A DNA stretch of 19,745 nucleotides from Candidatus Hydrogenedentota bacterium (GCA_046583315.1 JAYGCN010000330.1:1-19745); one strand, 5' to 3'. Positions 5,699-16,758 are shown, numbered from the stretch's first letter. Numbers and translations: made by a program. Notes: generated by a model not told the origin, from the letters alone.

Positions 5699-6634
5699 AT
5701 GAAACGTCTATTAGCTTCATTGCTCATTGCCGCATCGGCCACAGTGGCATACGCCGCCCCGCACCCCGCCCCCACCGCCGAAGCAAACGGCTGGACCCTG
5801 GGCGTGCAGGCCTTCTCCTTCTACACGGTCACCTTCTTCGAAGCCGTCGACCACATTTCCGCCCTCGGACTCCATCACGTCGAGGCCATACCCTTCGGCC
5901 GACTGAGTCCCGAACATAAAAACATCGTCACTGACCACAACATGCCCGCCGATTACCGCGCGATCATGAAAAAGAAACTCGCCGAAGTCGACGTAACGCT
6001 CAGTAGCTACGGTGTCGTCCCCCTGCCCAACGACGAGGCCGAATGCCGCAAGGTTTTCGAGTTCGCCAAAGACATGGGCATCACCACCATCGTCTCCGAA
6101 CCGCCCCCCGAAGCCATCGACCTCATTGCGAAACTCTGCGACGAATACGAAATAGACGTCGCCATCCACAACCATCCGATCCCTTCCGCCTATTGGGATC
6201 CGCAAACGGTATACGACGCGGTGAACGGAAAAACGAAACGTCTCGGCGCATGCGGCGACACCTCCCACTGGCAACGCTCTGGCCTCGATGTCGTCGCTAG
6301 TCTAAAACTGCTTGAAGGCCGTTTGAAAACCTTCCACTTCGGTGAAGTAGACGGAGATAAAGCAGCCGAATTCGCCACAAAACGCGAAGGCCTCGCGCTC
6401 GACGACAAAAAATTTCCCAGCATGATCATGCACGTGCAGGCAATCCCCAACGTCGTCTACGGAACCGGCCCCGCCGACATGAAAGCATGGCTCACCGAAA
6501 TTAAACGCCAGAATATCCGCGCCAAATTCTCCCTCGAAGCCTTCTTCGATCGCCCACCCGATGAAGCGCAAGTCATGATGGAAAAATCCATTCGCCATTT
6601 CGAAGCCATCACCAAAGAACTCCACGGAAAATAG
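5699..6634 (+). CDS. Sugar phosphate isomerase/epimerase (xylose-isomerase-like TIM barrel), secreted
   Basis: Sec signal MKRLLASLLIAASATVAYA; motifs LGVQAFSF, SEP, IHNHP, DTSHW, FSLE; SD AAGGGA. Confidence 0.88.
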   Translation: MKRLLASLLIAASATVAYAAPHPAPTAEANGWTLGVQAFSFYTVTFFEAVDHISALGLHHVEAIPFGRLSPEHKNIVTDHNMPADYRAIMKKKLAEVDVTLSSYGVVPLPNDEAECRKVFEFAKDMGITTIVSEPPPEAIDLIAKLCDEYEIDVAIHNHPIPSAYWDPQTVYDAVNGKTKRLGACGDTSHWQRSGLDVVASLKLLEGRLKTFHFGEVDGDKAAEFATKREGLALDDKKFPSMIMHVQAIPNVVYGTGPADMKAWLTEIKRQNIRAKFSLEAFFDRPPDEAQVMMEKSIRHFEAITKELHGK

Positions 6635-6638
6635 TCCC

Positions 6639-7460
6639 ATGACCTACAGAGTTTCCAATGAAGAAGTTAAAACCTTTCATCAAGATGGCTACCTACTCGT
6701 GCCAAATCTCTTCGACGATGAAGAGGTAAACATTCTATTGACGACCGCACGCGCCGATGCCGCCATGCTGGACCACGCCCGCGATATCAAAGACGCGTCA
6801 GGCAAAAAAAGCAAGCTCGCACTTTGGAATCATCCCGGCGACGACGTGTTCGGACTGGTCGGTCGCTGCCACCGCGTCGTGGATACCGCCGAAGCCCTGC
6901 TCGACGACGAAGTCTACCATTACCACTCCAAACTCAGCATCAAGGAACCCCACGTCGGCGGCGCCTGGGAATGGCACCAGGATTACGGCTACTGGTACAA
7001 CTTCGGATGCCTCTTCCCCGACATGCTCAGCTGCATGGTCGCCCTCGACCCCGCCACCTGCGAAAACGGCTGCATGCAAGTGCTCAAAGGCTCTCACAAA
7101 GCAGGACGCATCGAACACGGTGTGGAAGGCGAACAATCCGGCGCGGATAAATCCCGTGTTGCCGAATTAGAGAAGGTATTGGAGCTCGTTTACTGTGAAA
7201 TGAGTCCCGGTGACGCCCTGTTTTTCCACGGCAACACCCTACACTGTTCCGCACCCAACGAAAGCGACGATCCGCGCTGGGTCCTCATCAGCTGCTACAA
7301 CGCTCGCTCAAACAATCCCACCAAAGACGACCAGCATCCCAAATACACGCCTATCGACGAAGTAGACGACGATGCCATCAAAGCCCACGGCATCCAATCC
7401 AGCGACACCTCGCAGCAGTACATGGAAACCAAATTACACGACAAGAGTACAACGGACTAG
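6639..7460 (+). CDS. Phytanoyl-CoA dioxygenase (PhyH) family Fe(II)/2-oxoglutarate dioxygenase
   Basis: F...GY, WHQD (HxD), ALDPATCENGC.QV..GSH, PGDALFFHGNTLHCSAPN.S..PR; starts 4 nt after the previous stop. Confidence 0.93.
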   Translation: MTYRVSNEEVKTFHQDGYLLVPNLFDDEEVNILLTTARADAAMLDHARDIKDASGKKSKLALWNHPGDDVFGLVGRCHRVVDTAEALLDDEVYHYHSKLSIKEPHVGGAWEWHQDYGYWYNFGCLFPDMLSCMVALDPATCENGCMQVLKGSHKAGRIEHGVEGEQSGADKSRVAELEKVLELVYCEMSPGDALFFHGNTLHCSAPNESDDPRWVLISCYNARSNNPTKDDQHPKYTPIDEVDDDAIKAHGIQSSDTSQQYMETKLHDKSTTD

Positions 7461-7466
7461 GACTAC

Positions 7467-8288
7467 TCAACTCCCCGTAAAGGTCGGTTCGCGTTTTTCC
7501 ATGAAGGCCGTCACCGCTTCCTTCACGTCGTTGGACTTCAGGAAGCCGGAATTCCACAGGGCGATGAATTCGAGACCGTCACGCAAATTGTGATCGTCCG
7601 AATAATTCAGAACCTCTTTCGTGCCCTGTACCGCCAGTGGTGAGAACGATGCAATTTCCGCAGCCAATTCACGCGCCCGCGCCAGCATTGCATCCTTATC
7701 ATCGAAAACATCATTGACCAGACCGCTACTCAACGCCCGATCAGACGGCAACTTGCATCCGGTAAACGCCATCTCCCGCGCGATGCCTTTACTTACAACA
7801 TTCGTGATGCGTTGCAATGTCCCAACATCCGCAACGATCGCGATCTTTGTCTCATGAATCGAAAACGTCGCTTCCTTGGTACACAGACGGAAGTCGCACG
7901 CTGTCGTGAGGTCAACTCCCCCACCGATGCAATGCCCGTGGACGGCGGCAATCACCGGCTTGCGGCATTTTTCAGCGGCACTGATGCAGTCCTGAAGGTG
8001 CAAGACGTGTTTGTAAAACTCGTAGTTCTTCGTTGCGGGGGCTTCTTCTGATGGTGGCGAAAGTAGACTCGTAGACGCAAACAGATCCAGTCCCGCCGTA
8101 AAATGACGCCCCTCTGCCCACAGAATCGCGCAACGAATTTCCGGGTCCTCATCGATTTCCTCAAAGACCCGTTTAATCTCCTCAAAAAATATCGGGGCCA
8201 TCGCGTTCAGTTTCGCCGGGTTGTCCAACACCACTTCCGCCACATGCCCCACGCGATCCAATCGAATTACCGTATAGTCATCACTCAT
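7467..8288 (-). CDS. Crotonase/enoyl-CoA hydratase family, delta(3,5)-delta(2,4)-dienoyl-CoA isomerase (ECH1)-like
   Basis: FTAGLDL, KPVIAAVHGHCIGGGVDL..ACD.R, ET...I.ADVGTLQR (Glu/Asp pair typical of the ECH1/Dci subgroup), SPLAVQGTK; SD AAGGAG. Confidence 0.9.
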   Translation of the reverse strand: MSDDYTVIRLDRVGHVAEVVLDNPAKLNAMAPIFFEEIKRVFEEIDEDPEIRCAILWAEGRHFTAGLDLFASTSLLSPPSEEAPATKNYEFYKHVLHLQDCISAAEKCRKPVIAAVHGHCIGGGVDLTTACDFRLCTKEATFSIHETKIAIVADVGTLQRITNVVSKGIAREMAFTGCKLPSDRALSSGLVNDVFDDKDAMLARARELAAEIASFSPLAVQGTKEVLNYSDDHNLRDGLEFIALWNSGFLKSNDVKEAVTAFMEKREPTFTGS

Positions 8289-8361
8289 TTTAGGACTCCT
8301 TGAGAATTACTCGATAAACAGAATCGACATCATACAACCTTTTATTAAACCAACGCGAATT

Positions 8362-8370
8362 TGATACTCT
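8362..8370 (+). promoter_or_regulatory. Putative extended -10 element of the glpD-like operon (possibly leaderless)
   Basis: TGaTACTCT matches TGnTAnnnT and ends 7 nt before ATG 8378; no SD sequence upstream. Confidence 0.35.
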
Positions 8371-8377
8371 AACCGCT

Positions 8378-9979
8378 ATGCCAAGCGACAAACTCGACTT
8401 TCGAAACCGCGCCGAGCTCTTCCAGACACTCGAGCAGACCCAATACGACCTGCTCATCATCGGTGCAGGCATTACCGGTTGTGGAGTCGCTCGTGAAGCC
8501 GCCATGCGCGGCCTGAAAGTTGCCCTCGTGGACTCCCACGACATCGCCGCGGGCACCTCAAGTCGCTCCTCGAAATTGGTACACGGCGGCATGCGGTACA
8601 TGGCTGCAGGCCAACTCACTGTCGTAAAAGAAGCCTCCATCGAACGCAAAACATTGCGCCGAATCGCCCCCCATCTCGCCCAAACAACCCGTATGCTCCT
8701 GCCCGCACCCAACATAGCCGCCTCCCTAAAATTCAAGACCGCCATGCTTGCCTACGAAAAACTCGGCGAAGTGGAACCCGAAAATCGACACCAAGTCTGG
8801 GACCTCGAAACCCTGCGCGAAAACGAACCCGAAATAGACACCGACCGATTGCGCAGCGCGGTCGTCTACCCGGAATACGTCACCGATGATGCTCGCCTGA
8901 CGCTGGCGAACGCGCGTAGTGCAAAAGCCGCCGGTGCGCACATCATTACGTATGCGCCCGTCACCCAAATTCTAACCGAAAACAGATCGGCGGTCGGGGT
9001 CATCGTATCAGACTCACTCGGAGAACAAGGTGCGTGCATAAACGCGAGAATGATCGTCAATGCCGCCGGCCCCTGGCTCGATGCAGTACGCGCGCTCGAA
9101 GACAATCAAGCTCTACCACTGCTCCAACTCACCAAAGGCATCCACGTCACACTTCGGCGTGATCGACTTCCCATCAACAGCACCGTCATCCTTCAAGCCG
9201 CCGACAAACGTTCCAACTTCGTCGTGCCGCGCGGAGAATACGTCTACTTCGGCACCACCGACACCTTCTACCCAGATGCGGACTATTGGCCCGGCATCAC
9301 ACACGAAGACATTGACTACCTCCTCGATTCAGGCAGAAAAACATTTAATTCAGCCCCATTCAACGACGAGGATATCGTCTCCGTCTGGTCAGGCGTCCGA
9401 CCGCTACTGGCCCAGCGCGGCAAAAAACCCTCGGAAATATCCCGCAAAAACGAATTTTTGCAAGGCCCCGGCGGTGTACTCTCCATAGCCGGTGGTAAGC
9501 TCACCAGCTACCGGTCCATGGCCGAACGCATCGTCGACCTATGCGCGAAAAATCTGGGAATCAATACCCACCCGTCCACGACCGCAGAAGATCCGCTTCC
9601 CGGTGGCGACTTCGACGGCGACCTTGCCCCCATCGAAGCAGCTCTGTCCTCAAAAGGTCTCTCCCCCGCCCAATCAGAACGTGGCGCAAGACTCTATGGA
9701 AGCGAAGCGGCCGGAGTGTTCAGCGGCAACGACACCTTGCAGGCCGAAATCGATCAGGCCGTATTGGCCGAAGGTGCCCTAACCCTCGAAGATGTCTGGG
9801 TACGACGAACAAGCCGGGCACGATTCTCCGAAAACGGCGGCCTCGACGATCTTGAAGCAATGGCAACACACATGGGCACGCTCATGAACTGGTCTGATCC
9901 AGAACGACAAACTCAACTCGACAACTGTCGCGAAATCCATCGTAACGAACGAAGTGTTTTTCAACCACAAGGAACCTAA
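8378..9979 (+). CDS. glpD: FAD-dependent glycerol-3-phosphate dehydrogenase/oxidase (GlpD-like)
   Basis: DLLIIGAGITGCG, GTSSRSSKLVHGGMRY, TDDARL, VNAAGPW, KGIH, GTTD, GVRPL, GGKLTSYR. Confidence 0.92.
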   Translation: MPSDKLDFRNRAELFQTLEQTQYDLLIIGAGITGCGVAREAAMRGLKVALVDSHDIAAGTSSRSSKLVHGGMRYMAAGQLTVVKEASIERKTLRRIAPHLAQTTRMLLPAPNIAASLKFKTAMLAYEKLGEVEPENRHQVWDLETLRENEPEIDTDRLRSAVVYPEYVTDDARLTLANARSAKAAGAHIITYAPVTQILTENRSAVGVIVSDSLGEQGACINARMIVNAAGPWLDAVRALEDNQALPLLQLTKGIHVTLRRDRLPINSTVILQAADKRSNFVVPRGEYVYFGTTDTFYPDADYWPGITHEDIDYLLDSGRKTFNSAPFNDEDIVSVWSGVRPLLAQRGKKPSEISRKNEFLQGPGGVLSIAGGKLTSYRSMAERIVDLCAKNLGINTHPSTTAEDPLPGGDFDGDLAPIEAALSSKGLSPAQSERGARLYGSEAAGVFSGNDTLQAEIDQAVLAEGALTLEDVWVRRTSRARFSENGGLDDLEAMATHMGTLMNWSDPERQTQLDNCREIHRNERSVFQPQGT

Positions 9980-9980
9980 C

Positions 9981-11384
9981 GTGTCCTCCATCACCAAAAT
10001 CCTGACCGACGCGCTCGCCAGCGAAAAAGTCATCACCGACCCTGAAATCCTCAAAACCCGACGTCACGACTACTGGGTACTCAGCCATCTCGACAACATT
10101 CAGGACCGCCCCACCCCGGCTCCCGCATGTGTAGTCCGTCCAACCTCCACCGAAGACGTCGTTAAAATCGTCAATGCCTGCAGCGAATCCAAAACGCCAC
10201 TCATCCCCTTCGGACTCGGCAGCGGTGTAGTCGGCGGTGTCATCACCACGCCGGAACACGTGTTACTCGATCTCAGTTCCATGAACAAGATTCGCAATAT
10301 CGACGAAACAAACTACATTGCCTCCTTCGACGCCGGATACAACGGCGGAGAAGCCGAATGCGCCGTGCAGAAAAAAGGCCTCACCATCGGACACTGGCCT
10401 CAATCCATCGACATCAGCAGTGTCGGAGGCTGGATCGCCACACGCGCATCCGGACAATTCTCCACCGCCTACGGAAACATCGAAGACATCGTCTACAGCA
10501 TCGAGGCGGTATTACCCGACGGCTCCATCATCAACGCCGGTAAAGCCCCACGCGCATCCGCCGGCCCCGATTTACGCCATCTCCTCCTAGGAAGCGAAGG
10601 CACGCTCGCCGTCATCACAGGCGTCTCCTTATCCCTGCGAAAACTACCCGAGGTGTCACTCCACTCAGCATTCTACGCCCCAAATATGAAGACAGGTCTC
10701 GAATTCCAACGCGAGGTCATGCAAACGGGATATGCCCCGCCAGTCATGCGTCTATACGACTCCACTGAAGCCGCCCGCAACTTCCCCGCCGAACACAAAG
10801 ACGACGCAGCCATCTTCTTCGCAATCCACGAAGGTCCACAAGCCCTGGCCGAAGCCGAACAAGCCGGTGTCACAGCAATCGCCAAAACACATGGACTCGA
10901 AGAGGCACCCACCCAACTCGTCGAACAATGGCTGGGACATCGAAACACGGTTCCAACCTGGCAGACCTTTTTCGAAAAAGGAATCATCCTCGACACCATC
11001 GAGATTTCCTCTAGCTGGGATACCATCAACGCCATCTACGAAGCCGCCACCGCCTCCGTCCGTGAAGTTCCCGGTGTCCTCGCTGCCACCGCACACAGCT
11101 CCCACGCCTACCGCACCGGCATCAATCTCTACTTCACCTTCGCAGCACGTCCCGACAACTCCGCCGACATGGCAGACACCTATCGCGAATGCTGGAAACG
11201 CGTACTCGATGCCACCGCTGCCCACGGCGGAGGCATCGCCCACCACCACGGCATCGGACGCGTACGAAAAGACTATCTCGTGCACGATGTCGGCGAAGTC
11301 GGCATACAGACCCTGCGCAAACTCAAACAGACCCTCGACCCACACAACATCATGAACCCCGGAGTACTCCTGCCCGATGCCTGA
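9981..11384 (+). CDS. FAD-binding oxidoreductase (VAO/PCMH family), alkyl-dihydroxyacetonephosphate synthase (AGPS)-like
   Basis: PFGLGSGV.GG, GHWPQS..ISSVGGWIATRASG...YGNIED, LGSEGTLAVIT, RLYD, LYFTF, HHHGIG, LDP.NIMNPG. GTG start at 9981 with AAGGA upstream, 1 nt after the glpD stop. Confidence 0.88.
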   Translation: MSSITKILTDALASEKVITDPEILKTRRHDYWVLSHLDNIQDRPTPAPACVVRPTSTEDVVKIVNACSESKTPLIPFGLGSGVVGGVITTPEHVLLDLSSMNKIRNIDETNYIASFDAGYNGGEAECAVQKKGLTIGHWPQSIDISSVGGWIATRASGQFSTAYGNIEDIVYSIEAVLPDGSIINAGKAPRASAGPDLRHLLLGSEGTLAVITGVSLSLRKLPEVSLHSAFYAPNMKTGLEFQREVMQTGYAPPVMRLYDSTEAARNFPAEHKDDAAIFFAIHEGPQALAEAEQAGVTAIAKTHGLEEAPTQLVEQWLGHRNTVPTWQTFFEKGIILDTIEISSSWDTINAIYEAATASVREVPGVLAATAHSSHAYRTGINLYFTFAARPDNSADMADTYRECWKRVLDATAAHGGGIAHHHGIGRVRKDYLVHDVGEVGIQTLRKLKQTLDPHNIMNPGVLLPDA

Positions 11385-12792
11385 CCTCACCTTGGCACTC
11401 GACATCGGCACGACAAGTCTACGCGCGGTGATCTTCGATCCGCAGTGGGTCATCGCAGGGCAGAGTCACGACATCATCGCATCCAATGCCCCTCATCCCG
11501 GATGGCTTGAGCAGGATCCAGAAGAAATCTGGACCAAAACGATGACCGCCGCGCGCGAAGCGATCAGGGCCGCGACAGCAACAGGGAGCGATGTCACCAG
11601 CATCGGCATCACCACTCAACGCGCCTCCTGCATGGTCTGGGAACGCACAACTGGAAACCCGCTCACCCCTCTCGTCAGCTGGCAGGATATGAGAGGAATA
11701 CAGCGCGCTCACGAGTTGGGCGAACAAGGATTTCCCCTCATGCCCGCGTCCTCTGCCTGCAAACTCGAATCCATTCTCGACGCCATCCCCAACGGTCGTC
11801 AACGCATGAACGCAGACGAACTCTGCTGGGGCAACATCGACAGCTACATCGTATTTCGACTCACCGGCGGCGCCGTCCACGCCACCGATCACTCCCAAGC
11901 CTGCGCGACCGGCTACTACGATATGCAGTCCAACGGCTGGAACGACGCACTACTCAAGATTCAAGACCTCTCCCCCGACTTCTTTCCCGAACTCGTTGAT
12001 ACCTCAGGTGTAATCGGCGAAACGATTGCCAAACACTTCAACGCCACCATTCCCATCGGCGCTATCGTCGGCGATCAACAAAGCTCCGCCGTCGCCCAAG
12101 GCTGCACCGAACCCGGCGACCTCAAATTCACCTTCGGCACCTCCGGCACCTGCAATGTAAACACGGGCCAAGACATCCTGTCATTACACGGCACCTACCC
12201 CCTCGTTCTCCGTCACGAAAACGACACGACCACTTATTGCATCGAAGCCATGATCATGACCGCCGGTGCCATGCTCGATTGGACGGCTAATTTGCTGAAT
12301 CGAGACGGCCTTTTCACCGATTCCGACCACCCCGTCGACTCCAGCGGCGTATATGTGCTACCCGCCCTACAAGGTCTCGGCTCGCCCCATGCCAACCCGA
12401 ATCAAACCGCATCGATCGTCGGCCTCACACGCTCAACCACGCCCCAACACATCGCCGATGCCACCCTCGAAGGAATCTGCTACCGCGCACGCGAAATCGT
12501 CGAAGCGATTACCGAGCACAGTCCTCACCCCGTCCCCGAACGCATCGCTATCGACGGAGGCCTCTCCTCCAACACACGTTTTACACAACTTCTCGCAACG
12601 ATTATTGCAAAGCCCCTCGCCATATCCCCCCACCAAGAAGCCACCGCCCTCGGCGCAGCAGTTCTGGCACGACACCTGTCCGATTCACAAATGAGCTACA
12701 CCAAAGGATCTGAGGTACCACCAGACTCTACCCGCATCAAGCACTATAGCGATGCCTATGAACAATGGAAATCCTTCTTCCACCTACACTAA
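11377..12792 (+). CDS. FGGY-family kinase, glycerol-kinase-like with an atypical substrate pocket
   Basis: DIGTTS, GW.EQDP, GITTQRAS, WQD.R, GDQQ, K.TFGT, GLGSP, DGG, EATALGAA; the start overlaps the upstream stop (ATGCCTGA). Confidence 0.9.
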   Translation: MPDLTLALDIGTTSLRAVIFDPQWVIAGQSHDIIASNAPHPGWLEQDPEEIWTKTMTAAREAIRAATATGSDVTSIGITTQRASCMVWERTTGNPLTPLVSWQDMRGIQRAHELGEQGFPLMPASSACKLESILDAIPNGRQRMNADELCWGNIDSYIVFRLTGGAVHATDHSQACATGYYDMQSNGWNDALLKIQDLSPDFFPELVDTSGVIGETIAKHFNATIPIGAIVGDQQSSAVAQGCTEPGDLKFTFGTSGTCNVNTGQDILSLHGTYPLVLRHENDTTTYCIEAMIMTAGAMLDWTANLLNRDGLFTDSDHPVDSSGVYVLPALQGLGSPHANPNQTASIVGLTRSTTPQHIADATLEGICYRAREIVEAITEHSPHPVPERIAIDGGLSSNTRFTQLLATIIAKPLAISPHQEATALGAAVLARHLSDSQMSYTKGSEVPPDSTRIKHYSDAYEQWKSFFHLH

Positions 12793-12800
12793 CCGTACCC

Positions 12801-14510
12801 TCATTGGCCAACGGGTTCAGAAAAATCAAGCGGAACAATCTTCCACTCTATCCCCAGACCCGTCATCGCCTCGGACGTAAAACACCAAACGACAACTTCC
12901 TTCCCGTCATACCGATTGCCATCAAGTGCTGCATCGATTCGGACTCCATTTACCCCTGACTTTTTCCCAAGCATACTTAAACGATCGATTTCGAAACCAA
13001 GCTCAAACGACAGATAGTCTTGCAATCCTGCTCCAAATACCGAACCTGCCGTAAATGAACTCCCAAGAAAATAAGTAAAGCTATCGCCCAGTAGCAGAAC
13101 AGGGCTATTGCCATCCGTCTGAACCGGACGCGTGCCATTCGGTGAAGCATCATCCATTACTACCTGTGCCGTATCGGTCTCCAACCAACTCCGATTCTCT
13201 TCCTGTAAAGCCGTCTCACCCTCGTGCTCCTCATACCAATACGAAGCAATGTACCCAATCCGCGAGGGTACCGAATGAATCGTCTGCCGATTCGCCCCCT
13301 CAAAACCACTCGCTTCACGACACGTCTCCGCGACTTTCCTGGCAGCCAGGCGCACCCCCTCAGCAGACCAGTGATGGTCATCGCTAAGGTAGGGGGACCG
13401 CCCATTTTCACGACGAAATTTCTCAAATTCCGGATACAAGTCAACGACTGTCACGCCTTTTTGCTCAAGCAGATCATAAAACACCCTAAATTTTCGATCC
13501 AATCGAAAAGATGCATCAAGATCGGCAAAACGTCCGTGCCCAAAAGTTCTTTCCGTATCAAAAAGTATTCTCGGAGGAGCCGGCACCAGAACAAGCGTGA
13601 TACCGGCACGTTCAAGAGCCTCATGATACGCAACAATCGACGGGAGCACGCTCGCACCCATTAAGGAACTTTCAGAAATGCCCTCAAGATAGGACCCGCT
13701 CGGACCGCCCTGCCCATCCTTACCCGTAATGAGTGCATCACCCGCACTAGCAGTCAAATGCCACCCATCATCCCCCAACGGGTTCGCTACCCCCGGTTCA
13801 AGAGAAGACCGTCGCGCCGATAGGGCTTCCAAAAACTCCCCTTCCACATCCCGAAGCGAATCCACATACCGCTTCCGCAGTTCCAACATCCAATCGTCCG
13901 ATGATGCCGGCACAGCCGGATCGGTTTCCGATTTAATTCCCCGTCCGCTATCCCACACCCCGTAATATTCCGGCGCTGTCAAGACACTCTCGCTCGTTAG
14001 GCGAATGTGTTGAATAGACTCCAACGAGTTCCTCACTTCATCCCACGGCTGAATCGAAATAATCACAGGTTGACCTACCCGCAACTCCGTCGTGTCGTCG
14101 CGAATATAGTCCCGCATGCTCCAGACATGCGCCACCAAATGATCCTCTACCGATACGCCCCGCGTGAGGGATGTCACGTCAGAGAGAAACAGCGATATCA
14201 GGCAATTTCCATCCACGCTTTCCGTCCAAACAGGAGAAGTTGACAGTTCCCGAATCACTCCTCGAACAACAGAAGCCTTTTTCGTTGTTGCTGTTGTTGG
14301 CGCTAGTGTTGGTTCGGGAACGGAAACAGCAAGCGGCTCAGGCGTCGCATGCTCACTAGGTTTCGGAGCAACAGATACCCATACAAAAGGCAAGGCGACC
14401 ACCATTAAGAGCAGCACTACACCTGGAAGTCGACCATATTTTGCTTCCCATCCCCCTTTGTCCTCTCCGGCAGCTTCAGCCGCTACCGACTCTTTATTCT
14501 CGTCAATCAA
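12801..14510 (-). CDS. AlgJ/AlgX-like SGNH-fold polysaccharide O-acetyltransferase-related protein with N-terminal membrane anchor
   Basis: G.DGW, LVLVPAP, VDLY, DHHWSAEG (DxH) preceding VLLLGDSF (circularly permuted SGNH order), VVVW. Start placed at TTG 14510 with SD AAAGGAG; one TM segment near the N-terminus. Confidence 0.8.
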   Translation of the reverse strand: MIDENKESVAAEAAGEDKGGWEAKYGRLPGVVLLLMVVALPFVWVSVAPKPSEHATPEPLAVSVPEPTLAPTTATTKKASVVRGVIRELSTSPVWTESVDGNCLISLFLSDVTSLTRGVSVEDHLVAHVWSMRDYIRDDTTELRVGQPVIISIQPWDEVRNSLESIQHIRLTSESVLTAPEYYGVWDSGRGIKSETDPAVPASSDDWMLELRKRYVDSLRDVEGEFLEALSARRSSLEPGVANPLGDDGWHLTASAGDALITGKDGQGGPSGSYLEGISESSLMGASVLPSIVAYHEALERAGITLVLVPAPPRILFDTERTFGHGRFADLDASFRLDRKFRVFYDLLEQKGVTVVDLYPEFEKFRRENGRSPYLSDDHHWSAEGVRLAARKVAETCREASGFEGANRQTIHSVPSRIGYIASYWYEEHEGETALQEENRSWLETDTAQVVMDDASPNGTRPVQTDGNSPVLLLGDSFTYFLGSSFTAGSVFGAGLQDYLSFELGFEIDRLSMLGKKSGVNGVRIDAALDGNRYDGKEVVVWCFTSEAMTGLGIEWKIVPLDFSEPVGQ

Positions 14511-14552
14511 ATCGAACTCTCCTTTGTTGGGAATCCGGTGGACCCGACAAAG

Positions 14553-14582
14553 AGTATAATTAAGAACTCTTCCCCAGGACAA
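14553..14582 (-). promoter_or_regulatory. Putative sigma70 promoter for the AlgX-like gene
   Basis: Minus strand TTGTCC-N18-TATACT, about 40 nt upstream of the TTG start. Confidence 0.4.
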
Positions 14583-14586
14583 GATG

Positions 14587-16758
14587 TTATATCTTCGTAT
14601 GAAGCAATCGTAAGCCGTTAAAAATCACCAGCAACGAAGCCCCCATATCCGCAATAATCGCCATCCACAGCGTCGAAATACCCACCACCGCCAACAAAAC
14701 AAACGCCGCCTTCACACCCAGTGCAAATCCAATGTTCTGCTTCAAAATTCTCATGGTACGTTTCGCATGCTCGATAAGCCACGGTACTTTCAGCAGATCA
14801 TCCGAGACCAACGCAACATCCGCCGTCTCGATCGCCGCATCCGATCCCATCGCGCCCATCGCAATCCCCAAAGACGCCGCGGCCATCGCCGGAGCATCAT
14901 TTATTCCATCGCCCAGCATCGCCACGTGTCGACCCTCTCGCGTCAGTGCAGACACCGCCTCCACTTTTTCCTCCGGCAACAATCCGTACTCCACCGAATC
15001 AACTCCGACCGCTTCCGCCACGCTAGTCGCAGGCCCTTGCCCATCACCCGTCAACATTACCGACGCCACCCCACACGCATGCAACAATTCCACCATCTCC
15101 GATGCCTGCGTACGAATTTCATCCGCAACACCAATCAACCCGCAAGCATGTTCTTCATGCCCAACGACAACAACCGTGTCTCCCATTTCCACAAGTCGAT
15201 CACAATTTTCCCGAACCAACTCTTCATCCACGCCCCGCTCTTGCGCGAATCGATTGCTCCCAATCCAAAACATTCGTCCGTTGAATTGCCCCGTCGCACC
15301 CTTGCCTTGCACAATCCGATACGAATCACACTTCGGAATATCGATTTTCTCAGCGCGGGCCTCTGCAAGTATCGCCGTGGCAATGGGATGATCCGATTGA
15401 GACTCCATCGCCGCCGCGCGCGCCAAGACCTCCTCCCGCGTATGACCATTGAGCGGAAGAACCGTCTGTACAGCGGCATTTCCCAAAGTGAGCGTGCCCG
15501 TCTTATCCGTCGCCAGCGTATCGATGCGTGCGGCCCGGTCCAGAACCGTGCCGCCTTTGATCAAAACACCATTTCCAGCAGCCGCACTCAATGCCGAAAC
15601 TATCGTAATCGGCGCCGATAGGACCAGCGCGCAGGGACACGCAATGACCAGCAACACCAACCCCTGATACACACCCGCCAACCAATTCCCCCCGTTAAAC
15701 AGGGGAATGCTGACCATAACCAATGCCGACAAGACCATCACCGTAGGCGTATAAATTCCGGCAAAGCGTTCCACCCAGACCTCACGCTCCGATCGTTTCG
15801 AGTGCGCATCCTCCACCAACGCAATCATTCGACTCAGGGTCGAGTCTTCCGCCAACTGCGTAACCGTCATCTCAATCGTTGCATTGCCATTCACCGACCC
15901 CGCATACAGCATACTGCCTAAGGAAACCGGGATCGGCATCGACTCACCCGTAATCGGCGATTGATTCACATACGACTCACCAAGCGTTACTTCTCCATCC
16001 AGGGGAATACGCTCGCCCGGGCGTACCTGAACCCGTGAACCGATGTTCACCTCTTTCGCAGCACGTCGCTCAAATTCCAATGCATGATTACAAAATACCC
16101 AAGCCGTATCCGGCGTCGTAGCCAGCAACGCGCTGATCGATCTGCGCGCACGCCGCACACTCCACGCTTCCAACTGCAACGACACCGAAAACAAAAATGC
16201 CACCATGCCCTCTTCCATCCACTCGCCCAGAAACATCGCACCCAACACCGCCACCAGCATCAGAAGATTCATATCCGCGCGCCCTCGACGCGGCGCGTAC
16301 CACACTTTCGGAATCACAAACCAAAAACCGATGACCACCGCAACACCGATGGTCACAAGACTCGCCACCGGATACCCATGCTCCTCCCCTACACTCCCAA
16401 AAGCATCCGACCAACCATGCTGCACACCATGCCATAACAAAGCACCCGCATTCAGAACGCCTCCCGCTACGCACAACAAAAATCGACCGTGCAGCGACCA
16501 AAAACGTTCATCTTCCCCTTGCCGAAGCGCGAATTCACTCCATCCCGTCGCCTCGAGACCTGCTTTCCCCACAGCCACACATATCGCCTTTTCCTCCTCA
16601 TCGCTTCCCTGAGCAAGGACCGAAAGTTTGCCTCGAAGCAGATCAAAAGCGAGGTCCGACTCCGAATAACCCAGCGACAAAAGGGCCGACCGAATCGTCT
16701 TGATCTCTTCTATACAATCAAGACCCCGCACTCTAAACGCATGTACTTGATCACCCAT
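14587..16758 (-). CDS. cadA: Heavy-metal-translocating P1B-type ATPase (Zn/Cd/Pb, P1B-2-like)
   Basis: DMNLLM, PGERIPLDG, TGES, CPCAL, DKTGTLT, HP, GDGINDAP; Lys in the penultimate TM and DMG in the last TM (P1B-2 signature); N-terminal HMA-like domain GLDCIEE. Confidence 0.93.
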   Translation of the reverse strand: MGDQVHAFRVRGLDCIEEIKTIRSALLSLGYSESDLAFDLLRGKLSVLAQGSDEEEKAICVAVGKAGLEATGWSEFALRQGEDERFWSLHGRFLLCVAGGVLNAGALLWHGVQHGWSDAFGSVGEEHGYPVASLVTIGVAVVIGFWFVIPKVWYAPRRGRADMNLLMLVAVLGAMFLGEWMEEGMVAFLFSVSLQLEAWSVRRARRSISALLATTPDTAWVFCNHALEFERRAAKEVNIGSRVQVRPGERIPLDGEVTLGESYVNQSPITGESMPIPVSLGSMLYAGSVNGNATIEMTVTQLAEDSTLSRMIALVEDAHSKRSEREVWVERFAGIYTPTVMVLSALVMVSIPLFNGGNWLAGVYQGLVLLVIACPCALVLSAPITIVSALSAAAGNGVLIKGGTVLDRAARIDTLATDKTGTLTLGNAAVQTVLPLNGHTREEVLARAAAMESQSDHPIATAILAEARAEKIDIPKCDSYRIVQGKGATGQFNGRMFWIGSNRFAQERGVDEELVRENCDRLVEMGDTVVVVGHEEHACGLIGVADEIRTQASEMVELLHACGVASVMLTGDGQGPATSVAEAVGVDSVEYGLLPEEKVEAVSALTREGRHVAMLGDGINDAPAMAAASLGIAMGAMGSDAAIETADVALVSDDLLKVPWLIEHAKRTMRILKQNIGFALGVKAAFVLLAVVGISTLWMAIIADMGASLLVIFNGLRLLHTKI

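What the first reader, a model, noticed from the sequence alone, without database searches (positions are those of the whole stretch)
8378..12792. Candidate bacterial glycerol-ether (alkylglycerol) cleavage/salvage operon: kinase + GlpD-like dehydrogenase + AGPS-like flavoenzyme
Seen: three tightly coupled genes (1-nt gap and 8-nt overlap). The middle protein keeps the hallmarks of alkyl-DHAP synthase: GHxPxS...GGWIATRASG...YGNIED, Arg in RLYD, Tyr in LYFTF, and HHHGIG. Established: AGPS uses FAD non-redox to exchange the C1 substituent of acyl/alkyl-DHAP; FAD-linked GlpD runs oxidatively; ether biosynthesis needs a DHAP acyltransferase, a fatty acyl reductase and an NADPH reductase, none of which is in the window. 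Inference: the set runs catabolically. 1-O-alkylglycerol is phosphorylated by the kinase, oxidised to alkyl-DHAP by GlpD, and the AGPS-like enzyme releases the alcohol plus DHAP or acyl-DHAP. That would be an O2-independent ether-cleavage route distinct from alkylglycerol monooxygenase. Similar gene trios exist in other bacteria, but I know of no demonstrated function for them.
Basis: partly seen in the sequence, partly recalled or inferred. Interest (0 to 1): 0.72.

Follow-up and report, generated by a model that had tools for sequence, protein, structure and literature searches.

The report
Candidate bacterial glycerol-ether breakdown operon
Three tightly linked bacterial genes, found together in many aquatic and soil bacteria, encode relatives of glycerol kinase, glycerol-phosphate dehydrogenase and the enzyme that makes ether-lipid bonds; the kinase has lost its glycerol-gripping residues, so the set likely strips an ether-linked chain off glycerol, which would be a breakdown route nobody has yet demonstrated.

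Summary
In detail: a GlpD-like gene, an AGPS-like flavoenzyme gene and a GlpK-like kinase gene, with a 1-nt gap and an 8-nt overlap. The trio is conserved (101 of 122 well-flanked loci). It is not a glycerol pathway: 0 of 133 partner kinases keep GlpK's E84, Y135 or F270, all keep R83, W103 and D245, and 11 of 11 host genomes checked carry a normal glpK elsewhere. Related AGPS-like genes recur with five other kinase/dehydrogenase pairs that would each yield a substituted DHAP, some with lipid kinases. Best reading: a glycerol substituted at sn-1, likely a 1-O-alkylglycerol, is phosphorylated, oxidised and stripped to DHAP plus alcohol (about 0.5; about 0.75 for some 1-substituted glycerol). 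The substituent is not settled. The flavoenzyme is a short form, sister to E. coli YgcU, and some copies sit in sulfoquinovose or galactose clusters. Oxygen independence is unshown. The gene set is not new: Pseudomonas aeruginosa PA3026-PA3024 is a published, functionally untested counterpart, and this scan noted similar trios on other DNA. The remodelled-kinase evidence and this subfamily appear undescribed.

The parts
8378..9979 (+). GlpD/GlpO-like FAD dehydrogenase, 533 aa; predicted to oxidise a 1-substituted glycerol-3-phosphate at C2
   Evidence: Pfam DAO + DAO_C; best PDB match glycerol-3-phosphate dehydrogenase 3da1, E 2e-90; below every NCBIfam GlpD/GlpO/GlpA cut-off; equivalents of E. 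coli R54, Y55, R317, R332, K354 kept (their roles are recalled)
9981..11384 (+). Short AGPS-like VAO-family flavoenzyme, 467 aa; predicted to remove the C1 substituent from a substituted DHAP
   Evidence: Pfam FAD_binding_4 + FAD-oxidase_C; best PDB matches AGPS 4bby and 2uuu; R257, H372, H375, Y384, H421-423 invariant in a 40-sequence alignment; model pLDDT 85.7; sister to the YgcU group
11377..12792 (+). GlpK-derived FGGY kinase with a remodelled substrate pocket, 471 aa (A83 for E84, A124 for Y135, T258 for F270, a deletion of about 10 residues)
   Evidence: Pfam FGGY_N/C; best PDB and fold matches are glycerol kinases; below GlpK cut-offs; signature analysis
8289..8377 (.). 89-bp A+T-richer intergenic stretch between divergent starts; likely promoter region (inferred from layout only)
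   Evidence: no sigma-70-like site found there
7467..8288 (-). Divergent crotonase/enoyl-CoA hydratase; linked to the trio in this family only, possibly incidental
   Evidence: NCBIfam PRK06142 above cut-off; same position in L002, L107, L108, L109, with an acyl-CoA dehydrogenase beyond it in L107-L109

Best explanation
The three linked genes encode a GlpK-like kinase that lacks the glycerol-gripping residues, a GlpD-like dehydrogenase and an AGPS-like flavoenzyme, which together likely break down a 1-O-alkylglycerol left over from ether lipids. Step 1 (inferred): the kinase phosphorylates the free sn-3 hydroxyl; the substituent occupies the space vacated by E84, Y135 and F270. Step 2 (inferred): the dehydrogenase oxidises C2, giving alkyl-DHAP, with electrons to quinone or O2. 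Step 3 (inferred from recalled AGPS chemistry): the C1 carbanion adds to flavin N5, the alcohol leaves, and water (giving DHAP) or a fatty acid (giving acyl-DHAP) replaces it. An oxidative variant giving alcohol plus a 3-phospho-dicarbonyl and reduced flavin is not excluded. DHAP enters glycolysis; the alcohol would go to oxidation. The broader claim, some 1-substituted glycerol routed through a substituted DHAP, I put at about 0.75.
For: (1) 0 of 133 distinct partner kinases keep E84, Y135 or F270; 133 of 133 keep R83, W103, D245. These are GlpK signature positions described as identical across GlpK clusters (PMC3245297). (2) 11 of 11 host genomes checked have a canonical GlpK elsewhere. (3) The loss is convergent: a second kinase family in the same slot and a Microbacterium kinase beside another AGPS-like gene lack E84 and Y135 too. 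(4) That second kinase family bridges the subfamilies: in 20 fetched loci it sits with the window-type flavoenzyme in 3 and with long AGPS plus GlpD in 17, three of those with a YegS lipid kinase. (5) A GlpD-lipid-kinase fusion lies directly upstream of a long AGPS in L096, and GlpD + AGPS + YegS cluster in Streptomyces L119. (6) In P. aeruginosa the counterpart operon is co-activated with a phospholipase C, and its deletion had no effect on glycerol or the Biolog plates tested (PMC8151288). (7) AGPS active-site residues kept, D-lactate-dehydrogenase E/H residues absent. (8) No sugar ABC or TRAP system recurs beside the trio; the commonest transporter (24 of 194 loci, two lineages) is spinster-type, best match 6e8j E 5e-79, then human SPNS1/2. 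(9) Inference: GlpK/GlpD descent favours an sn-1 substituent, as in alkyl and acyl chains; an ester needs only a lipase, an ether has no such shortcut.
Against: No enzyme of this family has been assayed, here or in any paper found. The flavoenzyme lacks the N-terminal extension of long AGPS and a 24-residue cap segment present in Dictyostelium AGPS, has His283 where most relatives have Phe, and is sister to YgcU-type proteins that sit with soluble-solute transporters: this argues against very long chains. 23 of 194 loci carry a sulfoquinovosidase, 18 a sulfoquinovose monooxygenase-like gene, and several a galactose pathway. In 4 of 6 genomes without an adjacent kinase none of this type was found with this query. 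Some AGPS-like relatives are linked to ETF or fused to an Fe-S/CCG domain, which suggests redox chemistry. The fold search does not separate AGPS (Z 35.1, rmsd 2.5, 457 aligned) from D-lactate dehydrogenase (Z 35.7, rmsd 2.6, 434 aligned). Lipid-type neighbours were not tested against their background frequency in these genomes.
Confidence: 0.5

Rival explanations
1. The substrate is 1-monoacylglycerol from lipolysis of glyco- and phospholipids: kinase gives lysophosphatidic acid, the dehydrogenase gives acyl-DHAP (the natural AGPS substrate), and the flavoenzyme releases fatty acid plus DHAP.
For: Same stereochemistry and kinase pocket as the best explanation. Explains co-location with sulfoquinovosidase, alpha-galactosidase and hydrolases, whose lipid substrates leave acylglycerols. 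Known alkylglycerol kinase ACAD10 also takes 1-O-acylglycerol (PMC13596139).
Against: A lipase does this in one step (established knowledge). 29 of 34 flavoenzyme-carrying genomes in one family sample had no sulfoquinovosidase match.
Confidence: 0.12
2. The substituent is a polar group: a betaine-lipid head group (glyceryl-trimethylhomoserine), a sugar (galactosyl- or sulfoquinovosyl-glycerol) or cysteine (S-glycerylcysteine from lipoproteins).
For: Short soluble-type flavoenzyme with His283 and extra Trp residues; sister to YgcU-type proteins, whose clusters include a betaine-type ABC binding protein (L118) and an aspartase-like lyase with alcohol and aldehyde dehydrogenases (L117). LysR regulator in 44 of 194 loci, gamma-glutamyltranspeptidase in 17.
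Against: These head groups sit at sn-3, so both GlpK- and GlpD-derived sites would have to switch stereochemistry (inference from recalled structures). No betaine transporter recurs beside the window type. The Y135 position tolerates Q, L, I, F.
Confidence: 0.1
3. The flavoenzyme is an oxidoreductase and the trio degrades an unsubstituted longer polyol or sugar alcohol; no C-O bond to a substituent is broken.
For: FGGY kinases change sugar specificity at the same positions (PMC3245297). Relatives are linked to ETF, sugar ABC systems and a CCG-domain fusion. Fold tie with D-lactate dehydrogenase.
Against: Tyr384 and HHH replace the H and GEH of D-lactate dehydrogenase. No sugar transporter, isomerase or aldolase is conserved with the window type. 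The P. aeruginosa deletion had no Biolog phenotype.
Confidence: 0.1
4. The substrate is DHPS (2,3-dihydroxypropane-1-sulfonate): phosphorylation and oxidation give sulfo-DHAP, and the flavoenzyme expels sulfite, a new desulfonation route.
For: Trio embedded in sulfoquinovose clusters in two families; both carriers among 251 sampled genomes of the Sphingopyxis family lie within about 3 kb of a sulfoquinovosidase; loss of E84 removes a negative charge; sulfatases recur nearby; the window's genome has a SmoC-like gene, 51% identical, on C330.
Against: No new conserved basic residue seen in the kinase pocket. A sulfite exporter was seen in only 3 loci of one lineage. 40 of 42 sulfoquinovosidase genomes in that family lack the trio, and only 5 of 34 carriers in the Caulobacter family have the glycosidase. 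No true sulfoquinovosidase in the window's assembly.
Confidence: 0.08
5. The set makes or remodels ether lipids: salvaged acylglycerol is taken to acyl-DHAP and exchanged with an alcohol, as proposed for the P. aeruginosa operon.
For: Forward AGPS chemistry is the only one demonstrated for the family; the P. aeruginosa authors drew this direction; the genome has a GPAT_C acyltransferase.
Against: The biosynthetic Myxococcus AGPS is in an operon with a FAR-GNPAT protein (PMC9131029); no such partner recurs here. The genome's 14 NAD_binding_4 matches are weak (best E 2.6e-13; not examined one by one). FAD-linked GlpD runs oxidatively (established knowledge).
Confidence: 0.08

Closest known systems
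Alkylglycerone-phosphate synthase (AGPS/ADPS, EC 2.5.1.26; PDB 4bby, 2uuu; Myxococcus MXAN_1676)
   Same: Best sequence match in PDB; same fold; active-site Arg, Tyr and HHH kept.
   Different: 467 aa against 584-658; lacks the N-terminal extension and part of the cap; no FAR/GNPAT partner; activity untested.
P. aeruginosa PA3026-PA3023 operon, GliR regulon (PMC8151288)
   Same: AGPS-like oxidoreductase + GlpD homologue + FGGY kinase in one operon; not needed for growth on glycerol; function undemonstrated. Loci of that layout were recovered through a kinase family shared with window-type clusters.
   Different: Loci of that layout have long AGPS first, an AraC regulator, sometimes YegS; the window has GlpD first, a short flavoenzyme and a GlpK-derived kinase. 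The PA proteins themselves were not fetched, so the link is by layout.
E. coli ygcU-ygcW-ygcE cluster
   Same: Short AGPS-like protein in the sister clade with the same motifs, plus an FGGY kinase.
   Different: Uses an SDR instead of GlpD and a different kinase; carries ETF-like genes, MFS transporters and an antiterminator; about 34% identical; function unknown.
Glycerol kinase GlpK and glycerol-3-phosphate dehydrogenase GlpD
   Same: Closest characterised families of the two partners.
   Different: Below all NCBIfam cut-offs; three of five GlpK signature residues lost; canonical copies exist elsewhere in the genome.
Alkylglycerol monooxygenase (AGMO) and ACAD10 alkylglycerol kinase
   Same: Act on the proposed substrate (PMC3520006, PMC13596139).
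   Different: Unrelated folds; AGMO hydroxylates with tetrahydrobiopterin and does not accept alkylglycerol-phosphate.

Membership tests
AGPS/ADPS (EC 2.5.1.26) | VAO-family FAD-binding and cap domains, AGPS as closest sequence match | tested here: met
AGPS/ADPS (EC 2.5.1.26) | Active-site Arg419, Tyr578 and HHH motif | tested here: met
   R257, Y384, H421-423
AGPS/ADPS (EC 2.5.1.26) | N-terminal extension and cap insertion of long AGPS | tested here: not met
   the link of these segments to lipid handling is recalled
AGPS/ADPS (EC 2.5.1.26) | Hydrophobic tunnel for a long chain | not testable with these tools
   model coordinates could not be inspected (one search lists no model file)
AGPS/ADPS (EC 2.5.1.26) | Acyl-for-alkyl exchange on DHAP | not testable with these tools
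   needs an assay
AGPS biosynthetic module | FAR and GNPAT partners in the operon | tested here: not met
   absent from window and from recurring neighbours; an unlinked GPAT_C gene exists
Glycerol kinase GlpK | Signature R83-E84-Y135-D245-F270 | tested here: not met
   R-A-A-D-T in the window; 0 of 133 keep E, Y or F
Glycerol kinase GlpK | NCBIfam equivalog cut-off | tested here: not met
   344.9 bits against 590.35
GlpD/GlpO | DAO + DAO_C domains and phosphate-site Arg/Lys motifs | tested here: met
   residue roles recalled
GlpD/GlpO | NCBIfam equivalog cut-off | tested here: not met
   296.7 against 360 for PRK12266; 322.6 against 840 for type 1 oxidase
D-2-hydroxyacid dehydrogenases (LDHD, GlcD) | His405-type residue and GEH motif | tested here: not met
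   Tyr384 and HHH instead; GlcD model 179.4 against 567.9
D-2-hydroxyacid dehydrogenases (LDHD, GlcD) | Overall fold | tested here: inconclusive
   Z 35.7 against 35.1 for AGPS, a tie

The most novel reading that the evidence does not exclude
Bacterial AGPS-like flavoenzymes are a catabolic family that runs ether-bond chemistry backwards on DHAP. The window's trio is a monooxygenase-free route for degrading alkylglycerol ethers, and sister clusters, E. coli ygc among them, use interchangeable kinase/dehydrogenase pairs to strip other groups, such as the ether-linked head group of betaine lipids.
Probability: 0.3. Interest if true: 0.85.

Novelty: new variant of a known kind. Interest (0 to 1): 0.62.

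Why it matters
A 2021 review's abstract calls AGMO the only known enzyme that breaks down alkylglycerols (PMC7911779, search listing). If this trio cleaves glycerol ethers through alkyl-DHAP, it gives bacteria a second chemistry for a bond treated as hard to degrade, relevant to lipid-biomarker preservation and lipid turnover. It would also give a function to the orphan P. aeruginosa and E. coli clusters. It warns against a current practice: agps homologues in genomes are read as capacity to make ether lipids (10.64898/2026.06.23.733905), whereas many sit in modules that look catabolic. The kinase signature makes the question cheap to test.

Tried and rejected
Duplicate glycerol pathway: rejected. 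Aryl-glycerol ethers such as guaifenesin: considered; one paper search gave nothing relevant; not excluded. Obligatory sulfoquinovose link: not supported at genome level. Papers showing a function for this trio, YgcU/YgcE, the mycobacterial counterpart, bacterial alkylglycerol cleavage or betaine-lipid catabolism: none found in searches; subscription papers are mostly outside the library, and one search was swamped by an unrelated term. The AGPS mechanism paper (PNAS 2012) is not held, so mechanism details are recalled. PMC11962113 and PMC10132767 passages gave nothing usable. A kinase tree did not finish and was not repeated. In one search the D-lactate-dehydrogenase-like row was translated from the wrong strand and is meaningless; it was corrected. 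The promoter/terminator scan was at chance level. A plasmid search with the second kinase family found nothing at E 1e-60. A look-up of earlier findings by sequence gave nothing. No complex prediction or read mapping was run.


Full report
Observation. The window holds three + strand ORFs at 8378-9979, 9981-11384 and 11377-12792, with a 1-nt gap and an 8-nt overlap. Pfam gives DAO + DAO_C, FAD_binding_4 + FAD-oxidase_C and FGGY_N + FGGY_C. The best solved relatives are a glycerol-3-phosphate dehydrogenase (3da1, E 2e-90), AGPS (4bby, E 1e-58) and glycerol kinase (4e1j, E 7e-80). None of the three reaches an NCBIfam cut-off. A crotonase gene runs the other way from an 89-bp gap.

Conservation. 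Close relatives of the flavoenzyme came from named genomes (80 loci, 52-66% identity), metagenomes (80 loci) and handle genomes. Of 195 loci, 122 had 2 kb of flank on both sides: 101 held both partners, 12 GlpD only, 3 the kinase only, 6 neither. The loci are partly redundant. The subfamily is patchy: 6 of 13 genomes of the window's family and none of 27 others in its order; 6 of 301, 17 of 201, 15 of 201, 2 of 251 and 34 of 201 in samples around five other carriers (the last count includes one unpublished genome). Named carriers include Caulobacter, Phenylobacterium, Sphingopyxis, Novosphingobium, Luminiphilus, actinobacterial and myxococcal MAGs.

The kinase is not a glycerol kinase. Its model (pLDDT 91) matches glycerol kinases best (Z 50.4, rmsd 2.1, 465 aligned; xylulose kinase Z 43.2). 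Five positions define FGGY specificity; in GlpK they are R83, E84, Y135, D245 and F270 and are described as identical across clusters (PMC3245297, passages). In a solved GK these residues bind the glycerol hydroxyls and backbone, and the Asp activates the C3 hydroxyl (PMC2680290, passages). The window kinase reads R, A, A, D, T and lacks about ten residues nearby (the Y135 column may be off by one). Among 133 distinct partner kinases of at least 400 aa, none keeps E84, Y135 or F270 and all keep R83, W103 and D245. That E84 and Y135 face the non-phosphorylated end of glycerol is recalled, not read. The window's genome has a canonical glpK on C207 and a second glpD-like gene on C190, and ten other host genomes out of ten checked have a canonical GlpK. 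The dehydrogenase keeps the motifs around E. coli R54, R317, R332 and K354.

The flavoenzyme. It keeps the AGPS-type residues and has Tyr384 and HHH where D-lactate dehydrogenase has His and GEH. The fold search ties AGPS and D-lactate dehydrogenase. In a FastTree of 160 sequences the window type forms one clade (support 0.99) inside a group (0.99) that also holds E. coli YgcU; the long forms that sit with lipid kinases branch elsewhere. Rows were a chosen subset of 22 close loci, later loci, representatives of 430-600 aa, and one outgroup; eukaryotic AGPS was not in the tree. The window type lacks the N-terminal extension of long AGPS and a 24-residue segment present in Dictyostelium AGPS, and has His283 where most relatives have Phe.

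Partners converge on a substituted DHAP. More distant relatives (32-37%) sit with other pairs: GlpD plus YegS lipid kinase (Streptomyces; a GlpD-lipid-kinase fusion in L096); SDR plus YgcE-type kinase; glycerol dehydrogenase plus SDR plus xylulokinase-like kinase; a GlpK-like and GlpD pair in Microbacterium whose kinase has also lost E84 and Y135; and PdxA plus a four-carbon acid kinase. These were 11 plasmid hits chosen from 60. Each pair would give a phosphorylated three-carbon ketone (inference). One protein fuses the flavoenzyme to a PfkB kinase, one to a HAD domain, one to an Fe-S/CCG domain. A second FGGY family replaces the kinase in some window-type clusters; it was found in 80 of 301 genomes of one order. 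In 20 of those 80 loci that I fetched, 3 had the window-type flavoenzyme and 17 a long AGPS plus GlpD, often with a divergent AraC regulator, 3 with YegS and one beside a wax ester synthase; all 17 of these kinases that were aligned lack E84, Y135 and F270. That layout matches P. aeruginosa PA3027-PA3023. There the operon is activated together with a phospholipase C, its deletion did not affect growth on glycerol or on the Biolog plates used, and the authors proposed glycerol-to-alkylglycerone-phosphate synthesis without a test (PMC8151288, abstract, outline and passages; supplements not read). I found this paper's relevance through an earlier scan note.

What is the substituent? Neighbours are mixed. 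Lipid-type: crotonases in 11 of 194 loci, acyl-CoA ligases in 17, acyl-CoA dehydrogenases, thioesterase, and a spinster-type MFS in 24; these genomes are rich in such genes and no background control was run. Sulfur-type: sulfoquinovosidase in 23 loci, SmoC-like in 18, various sulfatases. At genome level the sulfoquinovose tie is loose: 5 of 34 carriers against 12 of 167 non-carriers in the Caulobacter family; 2 of 2 carriers but 40 non-carriers in the Sphingopyxis family. A galactose pathway adjoins several Caulobacteraceae copies. Glycolipid catabolism would explain both. A stereochemical argument (inference from recalled structures) narrows the field: GlpK and GlpD work on the sn-3 phosphate, so the substituent should be at sn-1, as alkyl and acyl chains are, whereas lipid head groups are at sn-3 and suit the clusters that oxidise C2 first. 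Between ether and ester, only the ether lacks a one-step hydrolase. Hence the best reading, at 0.5. Against completeness: of six genomes without an adjacent kinase, two had an unlinked one and four gave none with this query; there the substrate may arrive phosphorylated.

Direction and oxygen. The biosynthetic Myxococcus AGPS shares an operon with a FAR-GNPAT protein (PMC9131029, passages; PMC13012113, passages and one section). No such partner recurs here, though the genome has an unlinked GPAT_C acyltransferase and only weak NAD_binding_4 matches. The chemistry of step 3 is recalled from the AGPS literature, which I could not read. Oxygen independence is open, since the dehydrogenase could be an oxidase.

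Novelty. The gene set is known by sight (P. aeruginosa paper; three earlier scan notes on other DNA). I found no demonstration of function in nine of ten paper searches aimed at it. The short-flavoenzyme, GlpK-derived-kinase variant and the convergent pocket change appear undescribed in that library. Verdict: real, conserved, a new variant of a known but unexplained module, with a testable and fairly likely new catabolic chemistry. Interest 0.62.

Noticed in passing
L117:1-13235 (Priestia megaterium plasmid) and L141:11998-14556: A YgcU-type cluster lies beside a Zn alcohol dehydrogenase, an aldehyde dehydrogenase (best score betaine-aldehyde dehydrogenase, below cut-off) and an aspartase-like lyase; a 57% relative of the lyase is annotated in one ORF with a BCCT transporter. 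This would fit degradation of the betaine-lipid head group to DHAP, fumarate and trimethylamine. One locus only.
   Followed up: partly
L118:4749-8032 and L121:3589-8053: YgcU-type clusters with a betaine-type ABC transporter (Enterococcus) or with succinate-semialdehyde dehydrogenase and formaldehyde-activating enzyme (Streptomyces).
   Followed up: partly
L096:8268-10868: 866-aa fusion of a GlpD-like dehydrogenase and a DAGK/YegS lipid kinase directly upstream of a long AGPS.
   Followed up: yes
L013, L011, L028 and related Sphingopyxis loci: Sulfoquinovose monooxygenase-type cluster (sulfoquinovosidase, SmoC-like, aldo-keto reductase, TonB receptor) with the trio in its middle.
   Followed up: partly
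G000 contig C330:8026-11995: SmoC-like monooxygenase with TRAP transporter genes and an aldo-keto reductase at the contig end; no true sulfoquinovosidase in the assembly.
   Followed up: partly
L114:9004-14038 (Methylobacterium nodulans plasmid): AGPS-like gene in an operon with PdxA-like dehydrogenase and a four-carbon acid kinase, suggesting a substituted tetronate substrate.
   Followed up: no
P0063, P0090, P0019: AGPS-like domains fused to a PfkB kinase, a HAD hydrolase and an Fe-S/CCG domain; several other long representatives look like read-through duplications.
   Followed up: no
window:2083-5539: Three tandem Gfo/Idh/MocA oxidoreductases on the - strand, followed by a DUF4363-like and a DUF362 gene; a xylose-isomerase-like and a PhyH dioxygenase gene lie on the + strand at 5699-7460.
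   Followed up: no
window:17896-19005: 369-aa ORF with a weak DUF4870 start joined to what looks like the tail of another protein; possibly a rearranged or broken gene.
   Followed up: no
window:1-19745: Steady negative GC skew (cumulative -9.2) across the contig; heavy-metal P-type ATPase at 14587-16758 and an AlgX-like SGNH protein at 12801-14582.
   Followed up: no
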